Source: a virus
Lineage: Duplodnaviria > Caudoviricetes
DNA length: 64,000 bases
Strand: one strand, 5' to 3'
IMG/VR virus record: IMGVR_UViG_2595698868_000001
Span: 64,001 to 128,000 of that record
The notes below the pieces were generated by a model. It saw nothing but the letters and a program-made list of their open reading frames with translations. It was not told the origin of the DNA and searched no databases. Numbering within the stretch: position 1 is the first letter of the stretch; every line of letters starts with the position of its first letter. The position numbers were made by a program, and so were the translations under genes. Positions 4,452 through 62,921 of this stretch are shown one piece after another.

Positions 4452-4526
4452 CCCCATGTAGCTGAGACAGAGTAGCGCCAGAGTGAAATCCTGGAGACGG
4501 AGGTGCGAGCACTCTCGTGGGGGCCA
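4452..4526 (+). tRNA. tRNA-Phe(GAA), atypical
   Basis: CCCCATG/CGTGGGG acceptor, loop GTGAAAT, CCA; degenerate T arm. Confidence 0.7.
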
Positions 4527-4534
4527 TTTTCAGT

Positions 4535-4609
4535 GGCAGGTTAGTTCAGAGGTAGAACGCCGCTATGACATGGCGGATGTCGGGGGTTCAATTCCCTCAC
4601 CTGCTACCA
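4535..4609 (+). tRNA. tRNA-Val(GAC)
   Basis: Cloverleaf, loop ATGACAT, TTCAATT T loop, ACCA end. Confidence 0.88.
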
Positions 4610-4610
4610 T

Positions 4611-4686
4611 CCTAGTGTAGCTCAGTTGGTAGAGCAGCGGATCGATAATCCGCCGGTCGCCGGTTCGATCCCGGCCGCTAGGTCCA
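4611..4686 (+). tRNA. tRNA-Ile(GAT) (C33 variant)
   Basis: TAGCTCAGTTGGTAGAGC D arm, GCGGA-TCGATAA-TCCGC, GGTTCGATCC, CCA. Confidence 0.85.
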
Positions 4687-4694
4687 GTTTCTGA

Positions 4695-4770
4695 TGGGGC
4701 ATAGCTCAGGGGTTAGAGCGCGCGCTTGATAAGCGTGAGGCCGTTGGTTCGAGACCAACTGTCCCTACCA
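4695..4770 (+). tRNA. tRNA-Ile(GAT)
   Basis: Cloverleaf, CGCGC-TTGATAA-GCGTG, ACCA end. Confidence 0.88.
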
Positions 4771-4804
4771 AACAAAGGCCGGCGCGGAGATGCGCGCCGC
4801 CTAA

Positions 4805-4880
4805 CGCGAACGGGCCAGATGGGACGGCAGGGGTGTCACATACCTCGATTGACTGTGTTCGATTCACAGGTTCGCGACCA
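4805..4880 (+). tRNA. tRNA-Val(CAC)
   Basis: CGCGAAC/GTTCGCG acceptor, GGGGT-GTCACAT-ACCTC, CTGTG-TTCGATT-CACAG, ACCA. Confidence 0.8.
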
Positions 4881-4887
4881 AGTTTCT

Positions 4888-4961
4888 TGGGGGATCGTCT
4901 AATGGTAGGACGGTAGAGTCTGGTTCTACAGATATAGGTTCGAGTCCTATTCCCCCATCCA
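4888..4961 (+). tRNA. tRNA-Gln(CTG)
   Basis: TGGGGGA/TCCCCCA acceptor, GTAGA-GTCTGGT-TCTAC, T arm, CCA. Confidence 0.88.
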
Positions 4962-4967
4962 AGTTGT

Positions 4968-5041
4968 TCTCGGGTGGTCTAATGGTAGGACATCTGGTTT
5001 TGGTCCAGAGGGTTGGGGTTCGATTCCTTGGCCGAGAGCCA
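4968..5041 (+). tRNA. tRNA-Gln(TTG)
   Basis: TCTGG-TTTTGGT-CCAGA anticodon arm, T arm, GCCA. Confidence 0.88.
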
Positions 5042-5053
5042 ACTTGTTCTTGA

Positions 5054-5142
5054 TCTCATGTGGCGGAACTGGTAAACGCACCGGACTGTTAATCCGGCGT
5101 CTCGCAAGAGACTTGGGGGTTCGAAGCCCTCCGTGAGAGCCA
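5054..5142 (+). tRNA. tRNA-Asn(GTT) with class II long variable arm
   Basis: TCTCATG/CGTGAGA acceptor, G73, CCGGA-CTGTTAA-TCCGG, variable hairpin GTCTC-GCAA-GAGAC. Confidence 0.8.
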
Positions 5143-5171
5143 ATATGTCGCAGCTTCGGCTGCGGCGAAAT

Positions 5172-5255
5172 GCCCTGGTAACCCGGCGCGCACTACGAAT
5201 GCGCGAGCCGTAGCTGGAGTTGAAAAGGCTGGTTCGAATCCAGCCCAGGGCGCCA
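5172..5255 (+). tRNA. D-armless tRNA-Arg(ACG)-like
   Basis: GCCCTGG/CCAGGGC acceptor, CGCGCA-CTACGAA-TGCGCG, GCTGG-TTCGAAT-CCAGC, GCCA; only 8 nt where the D arm should be. Confidence 0.65.
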
Positions 5256-5259
5256 ACAT

Positions 5260-5337
5260 AGCGATGTAGCTCAGTGGATTTAGAGCGTTCCCCTACGAAG
5301 GGAAGGGTCGGGGGTTCGAGTCCCTCCATCGCTGCCA
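5260..5337 (+). tRNA. tRNA-Arg(ACG)
   Basis: Canonical cloverleaf, TTCCC-CTACGAA-GGGAA. Confidence 0.92.
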
Positions 5338-42625: not shown

Positions 42626-43027
42626 CTCTTGAAAAGCTCGCCTCTAATCGGGGCGGGCTTTCTTTTGCCTTAGATGGCATGGCCCCGTGGAAACGGGCCA
42701 AAGCGGTAGGCGCCGGCCTGGGAAACCTTGCACGCGCCACACGCTGTTCCGGCTGGAAAGCCGGCTTATAGTAGGAGGGTCGCCTAGCGCCTCTCCACCC
42801 TGGGACGTCACAGCTACGGCTCTGGCGTCGTCATTGTGAGGTGAGAACGCCTTCCTCACGCACGCTGGGACGCCGGCGTAAAGTACGAGGGCAAAAGGGA
42901 CGTCCATGTTGGCGTCCACCCGTCGGAAGAGATGCGGGAGCCCGGTCGACTTGTCGGCCGGCTGAAAACCGAGGACCCCGCCGCAATGACAAAGGCCCGC
43001 CGGAGTGATCCGGCGGGCCTTCCTTTT
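42626..43027 (+). ncRNA. putative large structured ncRNA
   Basis: No credible ORF; dense hairpins between a promoter and a terminator. Confidence 0.45.
42991..43027. terminator. likely bidirectional intrinsic terminator
   Basis: AAGGCCCGCCGGA-GTGA-TCCGGCGGGCCTT then CCTTTT, between convergent units. Confidence 0.8.
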
Positions 43028-43046: not shown

Positions 43047-44456
43047 TTAGTCGCGGACACCCTCTGGCAGGAGCGCCTCGCCGATCACGCCGGCGTTCTC
43101 GGCCTCGTGGATGAAGCGCAGGACCGACTCCGAGAAGCCGTCGATGTGCGTCCACTTGCCGTAGCCGATGCCGTTCTTCGCCGAAGCGACGTTGATCACG
43201 TACGAATGCTTGACCTTCGGAGCCGGCATGCTACCGCCGCCCAGCATGTGGTTGACGGTCTTGCCCGAGGCTTGCTCATCGGTGATGATGATCAGGCGAT
43301 CGAACTCGAACTTCGACTGGACGGTGGCGACCGCTTGCACGAGCGCCGTACCGATGTGCGGCTGCGAACGACGGATCGCGTCGACGCCGGCCATGCCCTT
43401 GCGGGCGGGCACTTCCACGATCTTGTTCGAGAAGCTGATCACGCGCAGGTCTTCGGCCGGGATGACCGAGGCTAGGGCGCTAGCCGCGTCGATACGCGTC
43501 AGATCGGACTTGCCCGAGAGCTTCTCGTCCATGGAGCCCGACACGTCCACCATGACCACGGTGCGGCCCGGCAGCTTCGGCATGTCGGCGATCGAGGCGA
43601 TCAGCGCTTCGTCCAGGGCCGGTTCGAACGTCGGCGCCGCACGAGCCGCCGCGATGTAGCGGAACGGCAGGACGCGGTGCGCGCCGCCCTTGCGGGCCTT
43701 GATCGCATCGATCACCAGCTTGCGGTCGACTCCGGCCTGCTCCATGTTGCGCAGGTTGCGCAGCAGGGCGAGGTAGCCGAGCTTTTTGTCTTCCAGCAGA
43801 CGGGTGAACTCCGCCTTCTTGTCGCCGCCGGCCGACAGCGCTACTTCCCAGGTGTCCGGCGACTCCAGCGTCTGATCGACCAGCCCCTTGTACAGGGACT
43901 GACGCTCGTCGTTGGCGGCCTTCGGGTGGCTCAGGAACAGCACGTCGCGCAGACGCACTTCCTTGGCGCGGTCGTACTTGGCGATCTGATACGCGTCGAA
44001 CTTGGCGAACGCCTTGGCGAGGCCGAGCTTCATCTGCTTGGACAGCGGCGCCTTGCGGGCGCCGTCGCGCGGTGGGTTGTACTTCCAGTACAGCGCCACC
44101 AGTTCCGACAGTTCGTCGGCGCGCTGGATCACGCGGGCGATCGTCTCCGAGACGAGGCCGTTGCCCGAGCCGCGCTTGGCCAGGGTGACGAGCAGCAGCA
44201 GGGGGACGTGCCGCAGGTTGGCGACTTCGCGCGCTTCGATGGCGATCTGGGCCAGGGTGTCGACCGGGACCTGCTCAGCGAGCTTGGCGATGCGGGTGCT
44301 GATCTCGACGCCGTCCTCGTAGGCCTCGTTCTCGAACAGCAGGCAGGACATCACCGACCGGCGCAGCGCCTGGACGGCCGTCATGCGGGCTGCGGGAGCG
44401 CCCTCGTGCGTCTTTTCGGTGAAGGTGTTCTTGGTCGAACGGTTGGTCGATGCCAT
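43047..44456 (-). CDS. rsr: Ro60/Rsr TROVE-domain RNA-binding protein with vWA domain
   Basis: THEGAPA N-terminus, YQIAKY, LRDVLFLSHPK, TWEVALS, ALLRNLRNM, DVSGSM MIDAS motif and IIITDEQ. Confidence 0.92.
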   Translation of the reverse strand: MASTNRSTKNTFTEKTHEGAPAARMTAVQALRRSVMSCLLFENEAYEDGVEISTRIAKLAEQVPVDTLAQIAIEAREVANLRHVPLLLLVTLAKRGSGNGLVSETIARVIQRADELSELVALYWKYNPPRDGARKAPLSKQMKLGLAKAFAKFDAYQIAKYDRAKEVRLRDVLFLSHPKAANDERQSLYKGLVDQTLESPDTWEVALSAGGDKKAEFTRLLEDKKLGYLALLRNLRNMEQAGVDRKLVIDAIKARKGGAHRVLPFRYIAAARAAPTFEPALDEALIASIADMPKLPGRTVVMVDVSGSMDEKLSGKSDLTRIDAASALASVIPAEDLRVISFSNKIVEVPARKGMAGVDAIRRSQPHIGTALVQAVATVQSKFEFDRLIIITDEQASGKTVNHMLGGGSMPAPKVKHSYVINVASAKNGIGYGKWTHIDGFSESVLRFIHEAENAGVIGEALLPEGVRD

Positions 44457-44492
44457 GGTCGGGTCGGCTCCTCTACTGCGTCAAAGGGTTGA

Positions 44493-44634
44493 CCGCAAGG
44501 TTGAGGGGGAACAAGTCGTCCACGGGGTGCGTCTACCAATTCCGCCATCCCTTTCCGAAGATTGGGAGCAGGGCTTGAACCTGCATTTCGCTTTACCGAA
44601 GTATCCGTGTACTACGCCACCCTCAACCTTGCGG
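44493..44634 (-). ncRNA. Y-RNA-like unit A (permuted tRNA module, Leu-type D arm)
   Basis: Terminal stem CCGCAAGGTTGAGGG/CCCTCAACCTTGCGG; T arm GCAGGTTCAAGCCCTGC, closed acceptor, D arm TGGCGGAATTGGTAGACGC. Confidence 0.8.
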
Positions 44635-44645
44635 CTGATGACTTG

Positions 44646-44807
44646 GAGAGGTTGAGGGGGAACTGGCGAGTACGGTTTCTTATTCCGGTGCGTTTGGCCA
44701 CTCCGCCACATGATCCTGTTGGGGATCAAGGTGGGACTCGAACCCACGTGCCCTTTCGGACGCCGGTTCCACGAAGTATCCGCACTCTGCGCCACCCTCA
44801 ACCTCTC
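44646..44807 (-). ncRNA. Y-RNA-like unit B (permuted class II tRNA module)
   Basis: Terminal stem GAGAGGTTGAGGG; variable arm, T arm GTGGGTTCGAGTCCCAC, acceptor, D arm TGGCGGAGTGGCCAAACGC. Confidence 0.8.
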
Positions 44808-44820
44808 GGTCGTTGGTGTC

Positions 44821-44964
44821 GAGGTAGAGGGGGAACAGGCGGCAACGCGTTTTTAGCGCTCTACCACTGAGCTACCTCGGGCTTTCGGCCCTCGGGTTGG
44901 ACTCGAACCAACGACCTCTCGATTAACAGTCGAAGAACTCGTCGCCTACGCCACCCTCTACCTC
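44821..44964 (-). ncRNA. Y-RNA-like unit C (permuted tRNA module retaining Asn anticodon arm)
   Basis: TCGA-CTGTTAA-TCGA, T arm GTTGGTTCGAGTCCAAC, GAAA-capped acceptor, D arm TAGCTCAGTGGTAGAGC. Confidence 0.82.
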
Positions 44965-44966
44965 AA

Positions 44967-45106
44967 TCGGCGTGTAGGTTGACACATGGGGAACTGGCGC
45001 CGTCGGTTTAGGGGGATCGAACCCCGTGGCGCGGATTTGCAGCCGCACCATTTCAACCAGCGAAGTAGCCGAAAGCTACGCCACCATGTGTCAGCCTACA
45101 CGCCGA
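44967..45106 (-). ncRNA. Y-RNA-like unit D (Cys-like anticodon arm + T arm, no closed acceptor)
   Basis: 23-bp terminal stem; GCGG-CTGCAAAT-CCGC then GGGGTTCGATCCCC. Confidence 0.72.
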
Positions 45107-45110
45107 CACC

Positions 45111-45301
45111 CCGATCATAAGGCGGTGGGGGAACAAGCGATCCCACACACGTTTAGGCGCTCTAACCGCTGAGCTACACGCCCGTCATCAGTTCAGGCCG
45201 AAGCCTGGACTGGTGGTGGACGCGGCTGGATTCGAACCAGCGACCTCCCGCTCCAGATGCGAAGTAAGTGACATCTACGCCACCCACCGCCTCGTGATCG
45301 G
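45111..45301 (-). ncRNA. Y-RNA-like unit E (permuted tRNA with internal CCA and extended acceptor)
   Basis: T arm GCTGGTTCGAATCCAGC, CGCGTCC-A-CCA, UUCG hairpin linker, GGGCGTG-TAGCTCAGCGGTTAGAGC. Confidence 0.8.
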
Positions 45302-45302
45302 T

Positions 45303-45479
45303 GTCGAGTGTGTTTGGGAGGTCCAGGGGATCAAACGAAAAGGCACTTTTTAATGCCGGTTGTTCTACCACTGAACTACATCCGAGTTGCCCCGGATGGC
45401 GGGATTCGAACCCGCGACCCACTGGTTGATGCGAAGAAATCCTCTTCTACGCCACCTGGACCTTCCAAACACACTCGAC
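45303..45479 (-). ncRNA. Y-RNA-like unit F (permuted tRNA module)
   Basis: ~25-bp terminal stem; GCGGGTTCGAATCCCGC, CATCCGG/TCGGATG acceptor, TAGTTCAGTGGTAGAAC. Confidence 0.8.
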
Positions 45480-45497
45480 CTGCCTTTGACGACAGAC

Positions 45498-45616
45498 CGA
45501 CCTGATCAGCGGTGGGGGAACGAGCGCCCCCAGGAAGACTAGACCCGAAGGTCCGGTCGCTTGGTTATGGAAAGCGAAGTACCCGAGGACTACGCCACCC
45601 ACCGCAAATCTGGTCG
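45498..45616 (-). ncRNA. Y-RNA-like unit G (scaffold with non-tRNA cargo)
   Basis: GGTGGCGTAG...TACTTCG...GTTCCCCC scaffold; cargo is a GGACC-TTCG-GGTCT hairpin. Confidence 0.7.
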
Positions 45617-45694
45617 TCCGGGAATTATCGAGGTCGGAAATGGGCCGAAGCCCGCTCTATGCAAAAGAAGTAACCGATCTCTGTCGCCACGGAC
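45616..45694 (-). ncRNA. Y-RNA-like unit H (short, degenerate scaffold)
   Basis: GTCCG/CGGAC stem, GTGGCGACAG...TACTTC...ATTCCC, GGGC-TTCG-GCCC hairpin. Confidence 0.55.
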
Positions 45695-45704
45695 AGTGAC
45701 CTTG

Positions 45705-45740
45705 TCACATAGGCCGATTCCGATGTCAACAATGTTGGCA
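45705..45740 (-). promoter_or_regulatory. putative promoter of the Y-RNA array/Ro60 operon
   Basis: Minus-strand TGCCAACATTGTTGACA (recurring motif; TTGACA at 45729-45724). Confidence 0.55.
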
Positions 45741-45779
45741 AACTTTTTTCGAGAAATGTGTGCCTGACTGTCAGACATG

Positions 45780-45817
45780 AAAAAGGCCCGCGACGATCCG
45801 GATCGTCGCGGGCCTTC
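45780..45817 (-). terminator. intrinsic terminator after the XRE regulator
   Basis: Perfect inverted repeat AAGGCCCGCGACGATC/GATCGTCGCGGGCCTT with a minus-strand T run. Confidence 0.8.
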
Positions 45818-45837
45818 CCCTGGTAGGAGATGACGAC

Positions 45838-46566
45838 CTAGAGGTCGCTCACCTTCCCTACCACCTTGCCGAGGAAGTGCAACTCCTCCGGATCGACCTC
45901 GTCGAATTTCTTGCGGTCGGCCGAGTAGACGCGGTACGGGCCGTTGCGATGCGGGCGCGTGATCGAGGCGACCGATGCGATACCGTTCTGGGCGTAGACG
46001 TACTCGGCATGGGAGGAGCCGGGTTCGGAGCCGCGACGCACGACCGCGACGTCGCCGGGCTTCAGGTTGGTGGAGAAGTCGTTGACCGTGTAGAGGGCCA
46101 GGGCCTGGGGCGAGACCTCGAATCTGGAGACGATCCAGTCTTCATCGAAGGTCCAGGGCTTGAGGGCGATCCAGACTTCACCGTCGGCGATGTAGTCGAC
46201 CTCTTCGATCATGCCGGGCATGTCGGTGGATTCTTCGCCGATGCCGAAGGCCAGCCACTGCGGGTCGCACTTCAGGACCGTGGCGAGCAGGACGATCTTG
46301 GACAGGTCGGGAACGACTTCGCCCGACTCGTACATGCAGTACGCCGAGCGGGAGAGCACTTTGTGTTCATGCTGCTTGTTGTTCCAGAAGATGATCTGGC
46401 GGGCGACGTCGAGTTGGCTCAGCCCGAGAGCGTCACGCTTCTCCTTCAGTCGGTCCTTCAGACCTTCGATCATTTCCAGAGGCGTCGGGGAAGAGCCACC
46501 GCGCGCCTTCGCTTGAGTGGGGCGTTCGGTGGTATTGACCGACTCCCGCATCATCGTCTGTTGCAT
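45838..46566 (-). CDS. XRE-family HTH transcriptional regulator
   Basis: RLKEKRDALGLSQLDVA...YESGEVVPDL...PQWLAFG; S24-like C-terminal fold (LKPGDVAVV). Confidence 0.8.
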   Translation of the reverse strand: MQQTMMRESVNTTERPTQAKARGGSSPTPLEMIEGLKDRLKEKRDALGLSQLDVARQIIFWNNKQHEHKVLSRSAYCMYESGEVVPDLSKIVLLATVLKCDPQWLAFGIGEESTDMPGMIEEVDYIADGEVWIALKPWTFDEDWIVSRFEVSPQALALYTVNDFSTNLKPGDVAVVRRGSEPGSSHAEYVYAQNGIASVASITRPHRNGPYRVYSADRKKFDEVDPEELHFLGKVVGKVSDL

Positions 46567-60554: not shown

Positions 60555-62921
60555 TTAGTGCGTGTCAGACCACCGATTACCGAACTGCACATCCACGTCG
60601 ACGGGGCAGCGGAAACCGAACTGCATACCGGCGTCGTAGGCAGCCGTGGTGATGTTGCGCTTGCAGATTTCCATGATTTCTGGATCATCGCGGACCGCGA
60701 CCTGGAGTTCGTCGTGAATCCACGCCAGGATGGCGAAGTGCCCATCCCATCCGTGGATCAGCCCGTCCTCCAAGCAGTAGTCGTAGAAGTTCACGCACCA
60801 CTGCTTGGCGATGGTCGCGCCGGCGCCTTGCAGCAGCGTGTTCAATGCGGCGTGCTGGGCGCGGACGAACAACTTGCGACCGTCCAAGGCATCCAGCATG
60901 CCAGACTTGGCCTCGCGCTGGATGTTCTTGACGACCTGACCCAGAGCGGGAATGCGCGTCATCAGGCGGCGGCGCATTTCGGCCCCGACGCGCTTGGCTT
61001 CCTGCGGCTTCATCGCCAGCGCCGGGTCGATGACGGTGCCCAGCTTGAAGTCCTGGGCGCCGTAGATCAGCGCGTAGATGAAGGTCTTGGCGGTGTCGCG
61101 GCTCTGGAGTTCCAGCGCGGCCGTGTGCAGGTCGTGGGGGTCGGAGTCAACAACCAGCTTGGCATAGACGCCGTTATCGAACTCGGCCATGAAGTGGCCG
61201 AGCGCACGCAGTTCAATGCCCTTTTGGTCGGCGCCCATGAGCTTCCAGCCCTTGGGGACATAGAAGAGCTTCCGGCAGTCGTAACCATGATCGCCGATGC
61301 GTCCGGTCAGCTTCTGCTTCTTGGTCTCGACCTTACCCTCGGCGTCCAGCACGAACTCGCCATGCTCGTCACGCTTGGGCGTGCCGAACAGTTGCTTGCC
61401 GTCAGGACCGCACAGCGGCGTCAGGTTCTCATCGTAGCCGATTTCCTCGCCGGCCTCGTTGAGGATCGGGATGCCGTAGATGATCTTGCCCAAGCGGAAG
61501 CGCGGCACGACGCCTTCTTCCACCCACTGCGCCAGCTTCTTGAAGACGACGCGCGGGACCTGCGCGATATTGGGATCGCTATGCGATGCACGATTCGTGA
61601 CTGTTCCGCCCACGTTGAAACGCGGGTGGATGCAGCCGTCATTACGCTCCATCGCCTTGCCGATCCAGCCGTTCTTGCCATCAACAAGCTGCCCAAGGCG
61701 CTTGTTCAGGTAGAACAGTTCGGCCAGTTCGTCGCAGATCGGGATCGTATGCGCCAGATCGCGCAGGACTTCGTCGTTAACCGCCGGCTGGCCGGTTTCC
61801 GTGAAGTCCTGAGGTTCCCACTGGTAGTTGAACTTCAAGCGGTCGATGATCTGCGGACGGCTGCCGGGGTTGAAGTCGGTGAGTTCCACCGGGCAGTACG
61901 GGCAACCTTCGGTGCGGTCGCCGCCCTTAGACCAGTCCTTGAACTTGACCGACTTCTTAGGGACCGTGATGTCGGCCCAGGCTTCACGCGAGTTGTCTTC
62001 GCCGTATTCGGTCTGCGGACGATAGGCAACCTTGGTCTTGAGCGGCTTGCCGTCGTCACCCAGGACAGGCTGGCCCGCCTCGTTGAGGACGGGCGTCGTG
62101 TACTCCTTGCCGATGACCTTTCGCTTGGACGGAATCCACCACTTGCCGAAGTGGGCGACAGCCTTGGCTTCCTTGACCTCGACTTCGGCGCGCAGTTCGG
62201 CTTCCAGTTCGCGGGCGGCATCGATGTCGAACGGGAAGCCGTTGTCGGTGACCTCGGCCATCAGCGCGTGGATGCGGTGCTCCAGCGTGATCGCGTCGTC
62301 CGAGTGGCGGCGCGGGTTGGCGACCATCAGGTGCCAGAGGGCTTCGTTGACGTTCAAGTCCTGAACGCAGTAGTCCTCCATCTCCTGGTTCCATTCGGAC
62401 CAGACGAGGCGGGTGACTTCGTCCTTGGCGAGGCCGGGATAGTTGGCCTTGATCTCCTCAGCCTTGGCCTTGGAGTAGTCGCCCTTGTGCAGGCCCAGAC
62501 GCTGACCCCAGGCTTCCAGGCCGTGACGACCGATCTGACCGCCGTCCAGTTCGCCACGCTTCCAGCGGCGGAAGTCCCGCTCCTTCTCGTCGGCGAAGAA
62601 GACGCGACTCAACACCATCGTGTCGCGGATCAGGGCGTTGACCTGGAACTCCGGATAGAAGAGTTCCAGCGCCGGGATATCGAACTCGACGATGTTGTGG
62701 CCGACGAGAACCTCGGCCTCGTTCAGCATCTGGATGCCGCGCGGGATGGTGTTCGTGCGCTTGTTCTGGCGGAAGACGTAGGTCTGCCGCGTGTCCAGGT
62801 CGCGGATCGCGAGGATATGGACACGCGACTTGACGGGATCGTCGCGATTGGCGCGCAGGTAGTCAAGAAGGCCCGTCGTTTCGATATCGAACAGGTAGCG
62901 CTTGCCGGCAGGGATGTACAT
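60555..62921 (-). CDS. family A DNA polymerase (T7-like)
   Basis: DIETTG and GHNIVEFD exo motifs; DQKGIELR (A), AKTFIYALIYG (B), WIHDELQ (C). Confidence 0.95.
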   Translation of the reverse strand: MYIPAGKRYLFDIETTGLLDYLRANRDDPVKSRVHILAIRDLDTRQTYVFRQNKRTNTIPRGIQMLNEAEVLVGHNIVEFDIPALELFYPEFQVNALIRDTMVLSRVFFADEKERDFRRWKRGELDGGQIGRHGLEAWGQRLGLHKGDYSKAKAEEIKANYPGLAKDEVTRLVWSEWNQEMEDYCVQDLNVNEALWHLMVANPRRHSDDAITLEHRIHALMAEVTDNGFPFDIDAARELEAELRAEVEVKEAKAVAHFGKWWIPSKRKVIGKEYTTPVLNEAGQPVLGDDGKPLKTKVAYRPQTEYGEDNSREAWADITVPKKSVKFKDWSKGGDRTEGCPYCPVELTDFNPGSRPQIIDRLKFNYQWEPQDFTETGQPAVNDEVLRDLAHTIPICDELAELFYLNKRLGQLVDGKNGWIGKAMERNDGCIHPRFNVGGTVTNRASHSDPNIAQVPRVVFKKLAQWVEEGVVPRFRLGKIIYGIPILNEAGEEIGYDENLTPLCGPDGKQLFGTPKRDEHGEFVLDAEGKVETKKQKLTGRIGDHGYDCRKLFYVPKGWKLMGADQKGIELRALGHFMAEFDNGVYAKLVVDSDPHDLHTAALELQSRDTAKTFIYALIYGAQDFKLGTVIDPALAMKPQEAKRVGAEMRRRLMTRIPALGQVVKNIQREAKSGMLDALDGRKLFVRAQHAALNTLLQGAGATIAKQWCVNFYDYCLEDGLIHGWDGHFAILAWIHDELQVAVRDDPEIMEICKRNITTAAYDAGMQFGFRCPVDVDVQFGNRWSDTH

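What the first reader, a model, noticed from the sequence alone, without database searches (positions are those of the whole stretch)
43047..45740. Array of eight Y-RNA-like cassettes with constant scaffold and variable tRNA-mimic cargo upstream of Ro60
Seen (minus strand): promoter, eight back-to-back units of ~80-190 nt, then Ro60. Each unit is a unique terminal stem enclosing the conserved pattern GGTGGCGTAG - short helix - T(A/T)CTTCG - cargo - helix - GTTCCCC. On the + strand this reads GGGGAAC...CGAAG(T/A)A...CTACGCCACC in units A-G with single changes, degenerate in H. Cargoes differ: five circularly permuted tRNA modules (T arm, loop-closed acceptor, D arm; A, B, C, E, F), one anticodon+T arm (D) and two simple hairpins (G, H). 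CGTCAAAGG (44479) and CCTTTGACG (45483) could pair to enclose units A-F. Established: bacterial Ro60 (Rsr) binds Y RNAs encoded next to it, YrlA RNAs mimic tRNA with this arm order, and loci usually have only one or a few. Inference: a modular RNP system in which one Ro60 displays a library of tRNA mimics, e.g. decoys for anticodon nucleases or adaptors for RNA decay/repair enzymes. I cannot confirm whether such an expanded array has been reported.
Basis: partly seen in the sequence, partly recalled or inferred. Interest (0 to 1): 0.92.

Follow-up and report, generated by a model that had tools for sequence, protein, structure and literature searches.

The report
Eight Y RNAs upstream of Ro60
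A giant phage related to Caulobacter phage CcrPW carries, just before its Ro60 RNA-binding protein gene, a row of eight small structured RNA genes that share one docking stem but have different, mostly tRNA-like, heads; it is an unusually large example of a known RNA-protein partnership.

Summary
On the minus strand, 45699-44498, lie eight back-to-back units followed by a TROVE+vWA (Ro60) gene at 44456-43047. A covariance model of the scaffold, built from 20 units of other contigs plus unit G, finds exactly these eight in the 64-kb window (33-60 bits). It finds nothing elsewhere in the 280-kb genome. The scaffold is an outer stem, a helix GG-U-GG/CC-CC with a bulged U, GGCGUAG (published Ro60 motif GNCGAAN0-1G), a covarying second helix, UACUUCG, and CGCYN-GUUCCCC. 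Covariation supports it. Five units (A, B, C, E, F) carry permuted tRNA modules. D carries a T arm plus a hairpin. G and H carry plain hairpins.

It is a Y RNA (YrlA-type) array, not a new kind. Y-like RNAs next to Ro60 in a Caulobacter phage of this lineage are in print (Chen 2014, as cited in PMC12135203). Arrays turn out to be the rule. I found 0-5 units per locus (median 3) in 33 other viral Ro60 loci, 5-6 in Brevundimonas and Xanthomonas phages, and up to 6 in bacterial genomes. Eight is the largest seen. Function (adaptor, decoy, repair) is untested. An overlapping window of this genome had noted the same stretch.

The parts
45705..45727 (-). Putative promoter: TTGACA at 45727-45722 and TATGTG at 45710-45705, just before unit H. 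It partly lies in an imperfect inverted repeat at 45724-45740.
   Evidence: Read. This stretch differs at 2 positions from CcrPW. It was NOT found by the E. coli-type sigma-70 scan (0 sites), so it is inferred only.
45611..45699 (-). Unit H: a minimal, degenerate Y RNA unit. The 5' box has a 1-nt insertion and the head is a small hairpin with a UUCG loop.
   Evidence: R1 37.1 bits, E 5e-9. 1 difference in 89 nt from CcrPW.
45507..45607 (-). Unit G: scaffold plus two plain hairpins (the outer stem extends to 45621..45493).
   Evidence: R1 59.8 bits. Outer stem of 19 pairs. In CcrPW the apical loop region is changed (45546-45549) while the stem is kept.
45318..45464 (-). Unit F: YrlA-like. It has a T arm, an acceptor hairpin closed by GCAA, a D arm and an extra hairpin. 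The 3' box is GATCCCC.
   Evidence: R1 33.0 bits. Rfam YrlA 42.3 bits, E 1.2e-7, below the gathering score of 69. 3 compensated pairs against CcrPW.
45120..45292 (-). Unit E: hairpin P3, T arm, acceptor 3' strand CGCGTCC, then A-CCA, a ~30-nt spacer hairpin, acceptor 5' strand GGGCGTG, and a D arm. The 7-bp acceptor has a G3:U70 pair.
   Evidence: R1 44.1 bits. Rfam YrlA 30.5 bits and permuted-tmRNA 23.4 bits, both below gathering. The same layout occurs in L015, with acceptor pairs changed on both sides and G3:U70 plus ACCA kept.
44980..45093 (-). Unit D: scaffold, a small hairpin, a 7-bp hairpin with an 8-nt loop, and a 4-bp T-arm-like hairpin.
   Evidence: R1 56.4 bits. Aligned with Brevundimonas phage units. 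1 difference from CcrPW.
44822..44963 (-). Unit C: an anticodon-arm-like hairpin (TTCGA-CTGTTAA-TCGAG), T arm, closed acceptor and D arm.
   Evidence: R1 43.4 bits. Rfam YrlA 29.9 bits and tRNA 25 bits, both below gathering. The 17-nt hairpin is identical in Xanthomonas phage Tenjo unit 5. The arms covary.
44649..44804 (-). Unit B: class II tRNA-like. It has a long variable-arm hairpin, a T arm, a closed acceptor and a 3-bp D stem with a long loop.
   Evidence: R1 51.5 bits. The best match of its 5'-half-like segment is the phage's own long-arm tRNA at window 5054-5142 (score 21, next best 11).
44498..44629 (-). Unit A: a T arm, a short closed acceptor and a class II-like D arm. Its outer stem shares GGTTGAGGG with unit B.
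   Evidence: R1 48.5 bits. In two related phage assemblies exactly this head (44511 or 44472 to 44605) is replaced by 92 or 133 other letters.
43047..44456 (-). Ro60 (Rsr) homologue, 469 aa: a TROVE ring plus a vWA domain.
   Evidence: Pfam TROVE 1.2e-17. VWA_2 and vWA_Ro60 fall just under their cut-offs. PDB 9l5y/9kop 'TROVE domain-containing protein', E 2e-20 over residues 14-450. It is the only TROVE gene in the genome.
42992..43021 (.). A GC-rich 13-bp hairpin after the Ro60 stop codon; likely the terminator of the unit.
   Evidence: Listed by the terminator scan on the + strand. On the minus strand the T run is weak (read).
45776..45820 (-). A GC-rich hairpin followed by TTTTT after the upstream HTH gene. 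It separates the array from upstream transcription.
   Evidence: Read. It is not listed by the scan.

Best explanation
This is one transcription unit: eight Y RNA genes (H, G, F, E, D, C, B, A) followed by the phage's Ro60 gene. Each unit folds on its own. A unit-specific outer stem runs into a conserved bulged helix (GG-U-GG paired with CC-CC). That helix is flanked by CGUAG on the 5' strand and CGCYN-GUU on the 3' strand, and I take this as the Ro60 docking site. A second helix (H2) then opens into a head that begins with UACUUCG. In the smallest relatives the head is only a small hairpin. Here it carries tRNA parts. The precursor is probably cut into unit-length RNAs that each bind one Ro60 ring. 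The heads then act as effector-binding modules that bring tRNA- or RNA-handling proteins to Ro60 in the infected cell. Candidates are host PNPase, RNase P and modification enzymes, and the phage's own RtcB ligase and CCA-adding enzyme. Shown here: the anatomy, the conservation, the covariation and the linkage to Ro60. Inferred: transcription, processing, Ro60 binding, and which effectors are recruited.
For: The Ro60 gene follows directly. R1 gives 8 matches in the window and none elsewhere in the genome. R1 was built from 21 units, 20 of them from other contigs. Scaffold covariation on those 21 units: 87.9% of cells paired against 58.5% in shuffles, covariation score 0.817 against 0.242 (0 of 500 shuffles reach it), and slid controls at most 0.21. 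All 8 pairs of helix H2 show changes on both sides, and H2 played no part in how I chose the units. The bulged-U register is supported by changes on both sides at columns 9/99, 10/98 and 12/97. The 5' box contains GGCGUAG. Relatives have GGCGAAG, which fits the published Ro60 motif GNCGAAN0-1G (Chen 2014, sections read). Linkage to Ro60 is strict. A 17-nt 5'-module search gave 66 forward and 1 reverse hit in 304 kb of Ro60 loci. R1 gave 229 hits in 76 of 80 bacterial loci, all co-oriented with and upstream of Ro60. R1 gave 0 hits in the 25 loci that merely matched the bare pattern and hold no Ro60 relative. tRNA-like heads: Rfam YrlA E-values of 1.2e-7, 3e-4 and 4.4e-4 for F, E and C; permuted order of tRNA halves in A, B, C, E and F; T arm, acceptor and D arm covary in 9 C/F-type units. 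Against CcrPW the array is 96.4% identical, with 3 compensated pairs and 6 pair-keeping changes. [quoted passage not shown] Thermus phage Ro60 binds two upstream Y-like RNAs and forms complexes with host PNPase (passages of PMC12135203). The genome encodes RtcB and a CCA-adding-family enzyme but no RNase PH/PNPase domain.
Against: There are no expression, processing or binding data for this phage. No unit reaches Rfam's YrlA gathering score (best 42.3 against 69), and A, B, D, G and H give no YrlA match at all. The motif is GGCGUAG, one letter off the published GNCGAA. The layout of the docking module differs from the Rfam YrlA consensus. The promoter is not found by the sigma-70 scan. Seven of the differences from CcrPW break pairs of the minimum-free-energy folds, though those folds are themselves uncertain. 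My choice of 3' ends for the model's alignment used outer-stem complementarity, so helix 1 is biased. Helix H2 is not.
Confidence: 0.82

Rival explanations
1. Decoy or bait panel. The heads are displayed on Ro60 to soak up or sense host nucleases that cut tRNAs (anticodon nucleases, acceptor-end nucleases), possibly feeding cut RNAs to the phage RtcB ligase. This is a rival only as to purpose; it assumes the same anatomy.
For: Unit C's hairpin has a canonical 7-nt anticodon-type loop (CUGUUAA). It is identical in a Xanthomonas phage while the neighbouring T stem and H2 have changed. In 200 distinct units from phage and bacterial loci, the hairpin that starts in the UACUUC box has a 7-nt loop in 72, against 79 of 1000 shuffled controls. 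Those loops show pyrimidine at position 32 in 58/72, U33 in 56/72, purine at 37 in 59/72, and 26 different middle triplets. The phage carries RtcB, and the Caulobacter control genome lacks both RtcB and TROVE. Unit A's head is swapped in related phages, as an arms race would predict.
Against: Only C, E and H of the eight units have a 7-nt loop there. E's loop triplet differs between the window and CcrPW and among relatives: CUG, UAG, GUG, UGG. D's 'anticodon' is not conserved. That hairpin shows no double changes. No nuclease partner is known. Published work ties Y RNAs to PNPase, not to nuclease decoys.
Confidence: 0.15
2. A cis-acting structured leader. The repeated stems mainly control stability, processing or translation of the Ro60 mRNA, for example through the long-range pairing that covers the Ro60 ribosome-binding region, rather than making free RNPs.
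For: The spacer before unit F and the spacer before the Ro60 start can form a duplex of -29.7 kcal/mol, against -17.5 +/- 3.5 for shuffles (2 of 300 as low). That duplex includes the GAGGAG before the ATG. The one CcrPW change in it keeps a pair, C:G to U:G.
Against: The segments were picked after seeing the fold. The 9-mer core is not above chance. The same scaffold occurs 1-2 kb away from Ro60 in many bacterial loci. tRNA-like arms covary, which a mere leader would not need. Published Y RNAs are trans-acting partners.
Confidence: 0.05
3. Unit E, and perhaps other units, work as real tRNA-like substrates. RNase P and 3' trimming would open the spacer and give a two-piece RNA with a free ACCA end and an alanine-type G3:U70 acceptor. 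That RNA could be charged and act like the tRNA-like domain of two-piece tmRNA.
For: E has a 7-bp acceptor with G3:U70, A73 and an encoded CCA, followed by a spacer hairpin. In L015 two acceptor pairs are changed on both sides while G3:U70 and ACCA stay and the spacer differs. The same set of features occurs in L081. There is a weak match to Rfam permuted tmRNA (23.4 bits, E 0.021). M. smegmatis YrlA is cut by RNase P and gains CCA (Chen 2014 section 8).
Against: Only 10 of 120 loci hold a CCA-type unit under my strict pattern, and only 5 of those have G:U at 3:70. The Brevundimonas E-type units lack the CCA and the spacer. There is no tag reading frame. That G3:U70 marks alanine identity is recalled, not tested here.
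Confidence: 0.1
4. Decaying remains of tandem tRNA genes with no present function.
For: The heads resemble the phage's own tRNAs, and unit E looks like the junction of two tandem tRNA genes.
Against: The same scaffold is conserved across more than 100 loci with compensatory changes. The array is 96.4% identical to CcrPW, with structure-keeping changes. Linkage and orientation to Ro60 are strict.
Confidence: 0.02

Closest known systems
YrlA / YrlB Y RNAs of Salmonella Typhimurium and Mycobacterium smegmatis (Rfam RF02553; Chen et al. 2014, PMC4201824; Wang et al. 2018, bioRxiv 10.1101/312249)
   Same: They are encoded next to and on the same strand as Ro60/Rsr. The 5' and 3' ends form the Ro60-binding stem, with a GNCGAA-type motif on the 5' strand. 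The head is a tRNA mimic in the order T arm, acceptor, D arm. In M. smegmatis two Y RNAs come from one precursor upstream of rsr, and YrlA is cut by RNase P and gains CCA, which parallels unit E.
   Different: There are eight units instead of one to two. The docking module has another layout (bulged-U helix, extra helix H2, UACUUCG box) and the motif is GGCGUAG. No unit reaches the Rfam gathering score. The heads are of several tRNA types: class I, class II, and one with an encoded CCA.
Thermus phage phiLo Ro60 with Yrl1 and Yrl2 (PMC12135203; PDB 9l5y/9kop are the best sequence matches)
   Same: A phage Ro60 with Y-like RNAs directly upstream. The phage encodes no PNPase. Binding of the RNAs and a ternary complex with host PNPase were shown there.
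   Different: There are two simple stem-bulge-stem RNAs there, against eight mostly tRNA-like units here. The protein match is E 2e-20 over residues 14-450; I did not compute the identity.
Deinococcus radiodurans Rsr-Yrn1-PNPase machine (RYPER), with several small RNAs upstream of rsr (Chen 2014 section 9, passage seen)
   Same: Several small RNAs are encoded upstream of rsr, and a Y RNA tethers Ro60 to an effector.
   Different: Yrn1 belongs to another lineage with a different arm order. Nothing here shows PNPase binding.
Y-like RNA arrays found here: Brevundimonas phages Papperlapapp, Marchewka and Kikimora; Xanthomonas phage Tenjo; Caulobacter phage CcrPW; Acidobacteriota genomes
   Same: They share the R1 scaffold and the position and strand relative to Ro60. 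CcrPW has the same 8 units. The Brevundimonas arrays keep the order minimal unit, F/C-like, E-like, D-like, A/B-like.
   Different: They have 5-6 units, or up to 6 in bacteria. None of them is annotated as RNA in the public records I read. I found no paper that describes them.
Permuted tRNA genes and two-piece (permuted) tmRNA
   Same: Unit E has a T arm, acceptor 3' strand and CCA placed before the acceptor 5' strand, with a spacer that would have to be removed.
   Different: There is no tag reading frame. Here the element sits inside a Ro60-binding scaffold. The match to the Rfam model is weak.

Membership tests
Bacterial/phage Y RNA (Ro60-associated ncRNA) | Encoded close to and on the same strand as a Ro60/Rsr (TROVE) gene | tested here: met
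   Unit A ends about 40 nt before the Ro60 start. All 8 units are on the Ro60 strand.
Bacterial/phage Y RNA (Ro60-associated ncRNA) | A stem formed by the 5' and 3' ends that carries a bulged helix and the conserved 5'-strand motif (published as GNCGAAN0-1G) | tested here: met
   Outer stems hold 12-23 pairs. The bulged-U helix is supported by covariation. The motif is GGCGUAG here, one letter off, and GGCGAAG in relatives.
Bacterial/phage Y RNA (Ro60-associated ncRNA) | Physically bound by Ro60 in cells or in vitro | not testable with these tools
   No binding data exist. The complex predictor on offer takes proteins only.
Bacterial/phage Y RNA (Ro60-associated ncRNA) | Expressed as a discrete small RNA | not testable with these tools
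   No usable RNA run was found (see Tried and rejected).
YrlA subfamily (Rfam RF02553) | Effector module that mimics tRNA in the order T arm, acceptor stem-loop, D arm | tested here: met
   Met for A, B, C, E and F. Not met for D, G and H.
YrlA subfamily (Rfam RF02553) | Score at or above Rfam's gathering threshold (69 bits) | tested here: not met
   No YrlA match at the gathering threshold. The best scores are 42.3 (F), 30.5 (E) and 29.9 (C).
Ro60 / Rsr protein | TROVE (HEAT-repeat ring) domain followed by a vWA domain | tested here: met
   Pfam TROVE 64.7 bits (cut-off 23). VWA_2 25.6 bits and vWA_Ro60 24.2 bits fall just under their cut-offs. Full-length match to the solved TROVE proteins 9l5y/9kop.
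tRNA gene | Complete cloverleaf in the normal order, recognised by tRNA finders | tested here: not met
   ARAGORN and Rfam tRNA at the gathering threshold find tRNAs only at 4452-5337, none in the array. Partial tRNA matches of 22-25 bits are below the threshold of 29.
Two-piece (permuted) tmRNA | Permuted tRNA-like domain plus a tag reading frame and pseudoknots; Rfam gathering score 47 | tested here: not met
   Unit E matches only model positions 36-95 at 23.4 bits.

The most novel reading that the evidence does not exclude
Ro60 in this clade is a display platform. Arrays of Y RNAs present a changeable panel of tRNA look-alikes: whole permuted tRNAs of different classes, anticodon-arm mimics with variable triplets, and an alanine-type CCA-ended acceptor. 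The panel would bait, sense or neutralise enzymes that attack tRNAs during phage-host conflict, with the phage's RtcB repairing what is cut. Heads would be swapped between strains as the conflict moves on.
Probability: 0.15. Interest if true: 0.85.

Novelty: new variant of a known kind. Interest (0 to 1): 0.6.

Why it matters
Y RNAs are usually described as one to four per genome. What their tRNA-like heads bind is an open question, stated as such in Chen 2014 and Wang 2018. This locus and its relatives show three things. First, one Ro60 clade of phages and bacteria uses a sharply defined docking scaffold. Second, genomes string 2-8 such units together. Third, the heads differ in tRNA class, in anticodon-like loops and in having a CCA end, and one head is exchanged between close relatives. 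That gives a natural series of matched scaffolds with different heads, which makes pull-downs for the unknown effector(s) directly feasible. It also gives a covariance model that finds units the Rfam YrlA model misses. None of the public phage records I read annotates these RNAs, and one calls part of a unit a tRNA-Ser.

Tried and rejected
Rfam at the gathering threshold gave only the tRNA cluster at 4452-5337 and nothing in the array.

The bare pattern search of IMG/VR returned 41 loci. 25 of them have no Ro60 relative and no R1 match, so I treat them as chance matches.

My first heuristic for pairing 5' and 3' boxes mis-paired several units; for example it joined B to A's 3' end. I used it only to pick clean minimal units for the model.

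My D-arm regular expression was too crude and I dropped it.

E. coli-type promoter scan: 0 sites.

Long-range 9-mer pairing: not above chance.

I looked for conserved partner genes beside two bacterial arrays. I found only a glycosyl-hydrolase-like protein and a metallo-beta-lactamase-fold protein, and no RNA-repair gene.

Sequencing runs: no RNA holder is listed for the array. The best holders carry 0.28-0.29 of the sampled words and are of unknown kind. The one raw RNA run I laid (X23, polyA) placed 0 reads, which is no test. Short contigs of a wastewater 'RNA-Seq' run (X11, flagged as probably DNA) cover parts of units B, C, D/E and H, but cannot show expression.

The Annual Review on bacterial Ro60 (PMC10870794) is not held.

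Supplementary Table S2 of Chen 2014 lists the phage YrlAs and may give a count for a Caulobacter phage of this lineage. It could not be seen, so I cannot say how many of the eight units are already listed.

Searches for a printed description of such arrays found none. They were, on the terms YrlA, Ro60, TROVE, Y RNA, phage, array, tandem, CcrColossus and anticodon nuclease. The nearest is a Listeria phage paper (PMC12282133, passages) that suggests three highly transcribed regions upstream of an Rsr-like gene may be Y RNAs.

I did not fold the Ro60 protein and did not run the complex predictor.

Full report
WHAT IS THERE. The window lies in a 279,967-base virus record (G000). Across this stretch it is 94.4% identical to Caulobacter phage CcrPW, genus Colossusvirus. 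On the minus strand, a GC-rich hairpin with a T run follows the upstream helix-turn-helix gene (45838-46566; Pfam HTH_3). After it come a possible promoter, about 1.2 kb without credible reading frames, and then a 469-aa gene at 44456-43047. That gene is a Ro60/Rsr homologue. Pfam TROVE scores 1.2e-17, and two vWA models fall just under their cut-offs. It matches the solved TROVE proteins 9l5y/9kop over residues 14-450 at E 2e-20. It is the only TROVE gene in the genome.

CHECK OF THE OBSERVATION. GGTGGCG[TC]AG occurs seven times, all on the minus strand between 44621 and 45599, and nowhere else in the window on either strand. T[AT]CTTCG always starts 18 nt after the box start. GTTCCCC (GATCCCC in unit F) closes each unit. 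In the whole genome the joint pattern with up to two mismatches adds only one 2-mismatch match on the other strand. Each unit folds on its own, with an outer stem of 12-23 ungapped pairs, and units abut or lie at most 13 nt apart.

I then built a covariance model, R1, from 21 short units. Twenty came from other contigs and one was unit G. In the window R1 finds exactly eight matches, all in a row on the minus strand. They include the degenerate first unit H at 37.1 bits, E 5e-9. A whole-genome pass finds matches only inside the array.

THE SCAFFOLD. On the 21-unit alignment the structure I propose is well supported. It is paired in 87.9% of cells against 58.5% in shuffles, with a covariation score of 0.817 against 0.242 (0 of 500 shuffles reach it) and at most 0.21 when partners are slid. 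I chose the 3' ends by outer-stem complementarity, so helix 1 is biased. Helix H2 pairs the 8 variable nucleotides after GUAG with a stretch before CGCYN-GUUCCCC. H2 was not used in the choice, and all 8 of its pairs change on both sides.

The register is GG, a bulged U, then GG, paired with CC and CC. It is backed by double changes such as CG..CG, AG..CU, GA..UC and, at the inner pair, AG..CU. The 5' strand holds GGCGUAG. Relatives have GGCGAAG or GGUGAAG. Chen et al. 2014 give GNCGAAN0-1G as the motif of the Ro60-binding strand (sections read).

After H2 comes UACUUCG. In 19 of the 21 short units its UUC begins a 3-6-bp hairpin.

THE HEADS. A, B, C, E and F have perfect 5-bp T arms with TTCRANN loops. 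In each, a segment like a tRNA 3' half comes before a segment like a tRNA 5' half. Scores are above shuffled heads except for A's 3' half. Rfam's YrlA model matches F, E and C at 42.3, 30.5 and 29.9 bits (E 1.2e-7 to 4.4e-4), all under its gathering score of 69. In nine C/F-type units from four phages the T arm, closed acceptor and D arm are paired in 100%, 84.6% and 100% of cells. They show double changes in 3, 5 and 1 pairs respectively.

- Unit B is of the long-variable-arm class. Its 5'-half-like part is closest to the phage's own 89-nt tRNA at window 5054-5142, with score 21 against 11 for the next tRNA.
- Unit E reads T arm, CGCGTCC, A, CCA, a ~30-nt hairpin, GGGCGTG, D arm. That is a 7-bp acceptor with G3:U70. 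In contig L015 the acceptor has two pairs changed on both sides, the spacer differs, and G3:U70 and ACCA are kept. L081 shows the same set of features.
- Unit C has a 5-bp hairpin with the loop CUGUUAA. The hairpin is letter-identical in Xanthomonas phage Tenjo, although the neighbouring stems have changed.
- Unit D's supposed anticodon arm has an 8-nt loop. In Brevundimonas phages it is a second T-arm-like hairpin.
- Units G and H carry plain hairpins.

RELATIVES.
- CcrPW has the same eight units. Its array is 96.4% identical to the window's, with 21 loop changes, 6 pair-keeping changes, 3 compensated pairs, 7 changes that break pairs of the minimum-free-energy folds, and 5 indels.
- In 34 viral loci seeded with the Ro60 protein, R1 at E 0.01 or better finds 99 units, all co-oriented with Ro60. 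The counts are 0 in 1 locus (which has no upstream DNA), 1 in 1 locus, 2 in 13, 3 in 10, 4 in 6, 5 in 2, and 8 in 1, which is CcrPW.
- With filters off, Brevundimonas phages Papperlapapp and Marchewka have 5 units, Kikimora has 6, Xanthomonas phage Tenjo has 5, and Mycobacterium phage Whirlwind has 0. In these arrays, 4 of the 5 or 6 units hold a T arm. The order of head types in Brevundimonas (minimal, F/C-like, E-like, D-like, A/B-like) follows that of the window.
- In 80 bacterial loci kept of 142 found, mostly Acidobacteriota and some Alphaproteobacteria, R1 finds 229 units in 76 loci. All are upstream of and co-oriented with Ro60, with up to 6 per locus in 5 loci. Whole-genome passes over five of those genomes found units only in these neighbourhoods, apart from one partial match (29.3 bits, model positions 14-66) on another contig of G004.
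- These counts are lower bounds. Default filters miss units, and flanks were 2.5-4 kb.
- Two related phage assemblies keep the array from 44605 to about 45790. They replace exactly the head of unit A, and in one of them also its 3' end, with 92 or 133 other letters.

WHAT IT IS AND HOW IT LIKELY WORKS. The anatomy, the motif and the strict linkage to Ro60 identify the units as Y RNAs of the YrlA kind. They have a Ro60-binding module and an effector-binding module, the two-module view set out by Wang et al. 2018 (passages). I infer one transcript from a promoter near 45727 that is cut into units. In M. smegmatis two Rsr-bound Y RNAs upstream of rsr are processed from a single precursor, and YrlA is cut by RNase P and gains CCA (Chen 2014, section 8). 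Each unit would dock on the outer surface of a Ro60 ring and present its head to tRNA- or RNA-handling proteins.

The phage has no RNase PH/PNPase domain, but it does have an RtcB ligase and a CCA-adding-family enzyme. The Caulobacter control genome has PNPase-type and CCA-adding-type genes but neither RtcB nor TROVE. For Thermus phage phiLo, Ro60, two upstream Y-like RNAs and host PNPase form complexes that lower PNPase activity in vitro (passages). Which effector each head recruits here is unknown.

THE DECOY IDEA. Some evidence speaks for a display of anticodon-like loops. Across 200 distinct units, the hairpin that starts in the UACUUC box has a 7-nt loop in 72, against 79 of 1000 shuffled controls. 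Those loops have Y32 in 58, U33 in 56 and R37 in 59 of 72, with 26 different middle triplets. Unit C's loop is conserved across host genera.

Other evidence speaks against it. Only C, E and H have such loops here. E's triplet differs even from CcrPW's. That hairpin shows no double changes. No nuclease is implicated. I keep the idea as the boldest reading, at about 0.15.

LONG-RANGE PAIRING. The 9-mers exist, but such pairs are expected by chance: 3 seen, 1.8 expected. The two spacers can form a longer duplex of -29.7 kcal/mol, reached by 2 of 300 shuffles, that covers the Ro60 ribosome-binding region. The single CcrPW change in it keeps a pair. This is suggestive and post hoc.

NOVELTY. Chen et al. 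2014 reported 355 YrlA candidates in 254 bacteria and 22 phages. [quoted passage not shown] So a Y-like RNA beside Ro60 in this phage lineage is in print. The number listed is in a supplement I could not open.

My searches found no description of three things: an array of eight, the scaffold defined here, or the finding that arrays of 2-6 units are usual in this Ro60 clade. The public records of CcrPW and the Brevundimonas and Xanthomonas phages annotate no RNA there. CcrPW has an antisense hypothetical CDS inside the array, and Kikimora labels part of unit 6 as tRNA-Ser.

I therefore class the finding as a new variant of a known kind: real, well supported as anatomy, and open as to function.

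Noticed in passing
window 5054-5142 and 5159-5255; elsewhere in G000 at C1:59240-59325, 62019-62108, 132216-132302, 133537-133623: Several of the phage's 28 tRNAs are 86-97 nt long and have a long variable arm, although ARAGORN calls them Asn, Arg, Trp, Lys, Cys and Met. From recall, those isotypes are normally short-arm tRNAs.
   Followed up: no
L002:7464-7719 (Brevundimonas phage vB_BpoS-Papperlapapp): A match to Rfam permuted tmRNA above the gathering score (60.2 bits against 47), about 2.4 kb downstream of the phage's Ro60 gene. It is not annotated in the part of the record I read.
   Followed up: no
L087:2002-2076 (Brevundimonas phage vB_BpoS-Kikimora): The GenBank record annotates a tRNA-Ser here. 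The stretch lies inside Y RNA unit 6 (R1 match 2000-2139). It is made of the scaffold's 5' box, the anticodon-like hairpin and the T arm, so it is probably a mis-call.
   Followed up: partly
L001:4341-4469 (Caulobacter phage CcrPW gp439): A 42-aa hypothetical protein is annotated antisense inside the Y RNA array. It is likely not a gene.
   Followed up: no
window 45724-45740: An imperfect inverted repeat (TGCCAACA T TGTTGACA on the minus strand) overlaps the putative -35 element of the array. It lies just downstream of a conserved HTH_3 gene (45838-46566) that keeps the same position in CcrPW and the Brevundimonas phages. It could be an operator for that protein.
   Followed up: no
L094-L173 (bacterial genome contigs, mostly Acidobacteriota MAGs): Close Ro60 relatives (49-61% identity) in bacterial genomes are preceded by up to six R1-type units spread over 1-2.4 kb with few credible ORFs. 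I did not test whether these loci are chromosomal or prophage.
   Followed up: partly
window 44472-44605 as seen in runs X1 and X3: Two related phage assemblies replace the head of unit A with unrelated sequence of similar length, while the rest of the array stays about 94% alike. The replacing sequence could not be read.
   Followed up: partly
200 units from the window and loci L002, L053-L088, L094-L173: The hairpin that begins in the UACUUC box often has a 7-nt loop with the Y32-U33-NNN-R37 signature of anticodon loops and a variable middle triplet. The 5' box GGUGGCG-UA-G also reads like a tRNA acceptor strand followed by U8 A9 G10. The scaffold itself may descend from a tRNA.
   Followed up: partly
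G000:C1:168272-169417 and 208630-208992: The phage encodes an RtcB RNA ligase (415 bits) and a CCA-adding/poly(A) polymerase family protein, far from the Ro60 operon.
   Followed up: no
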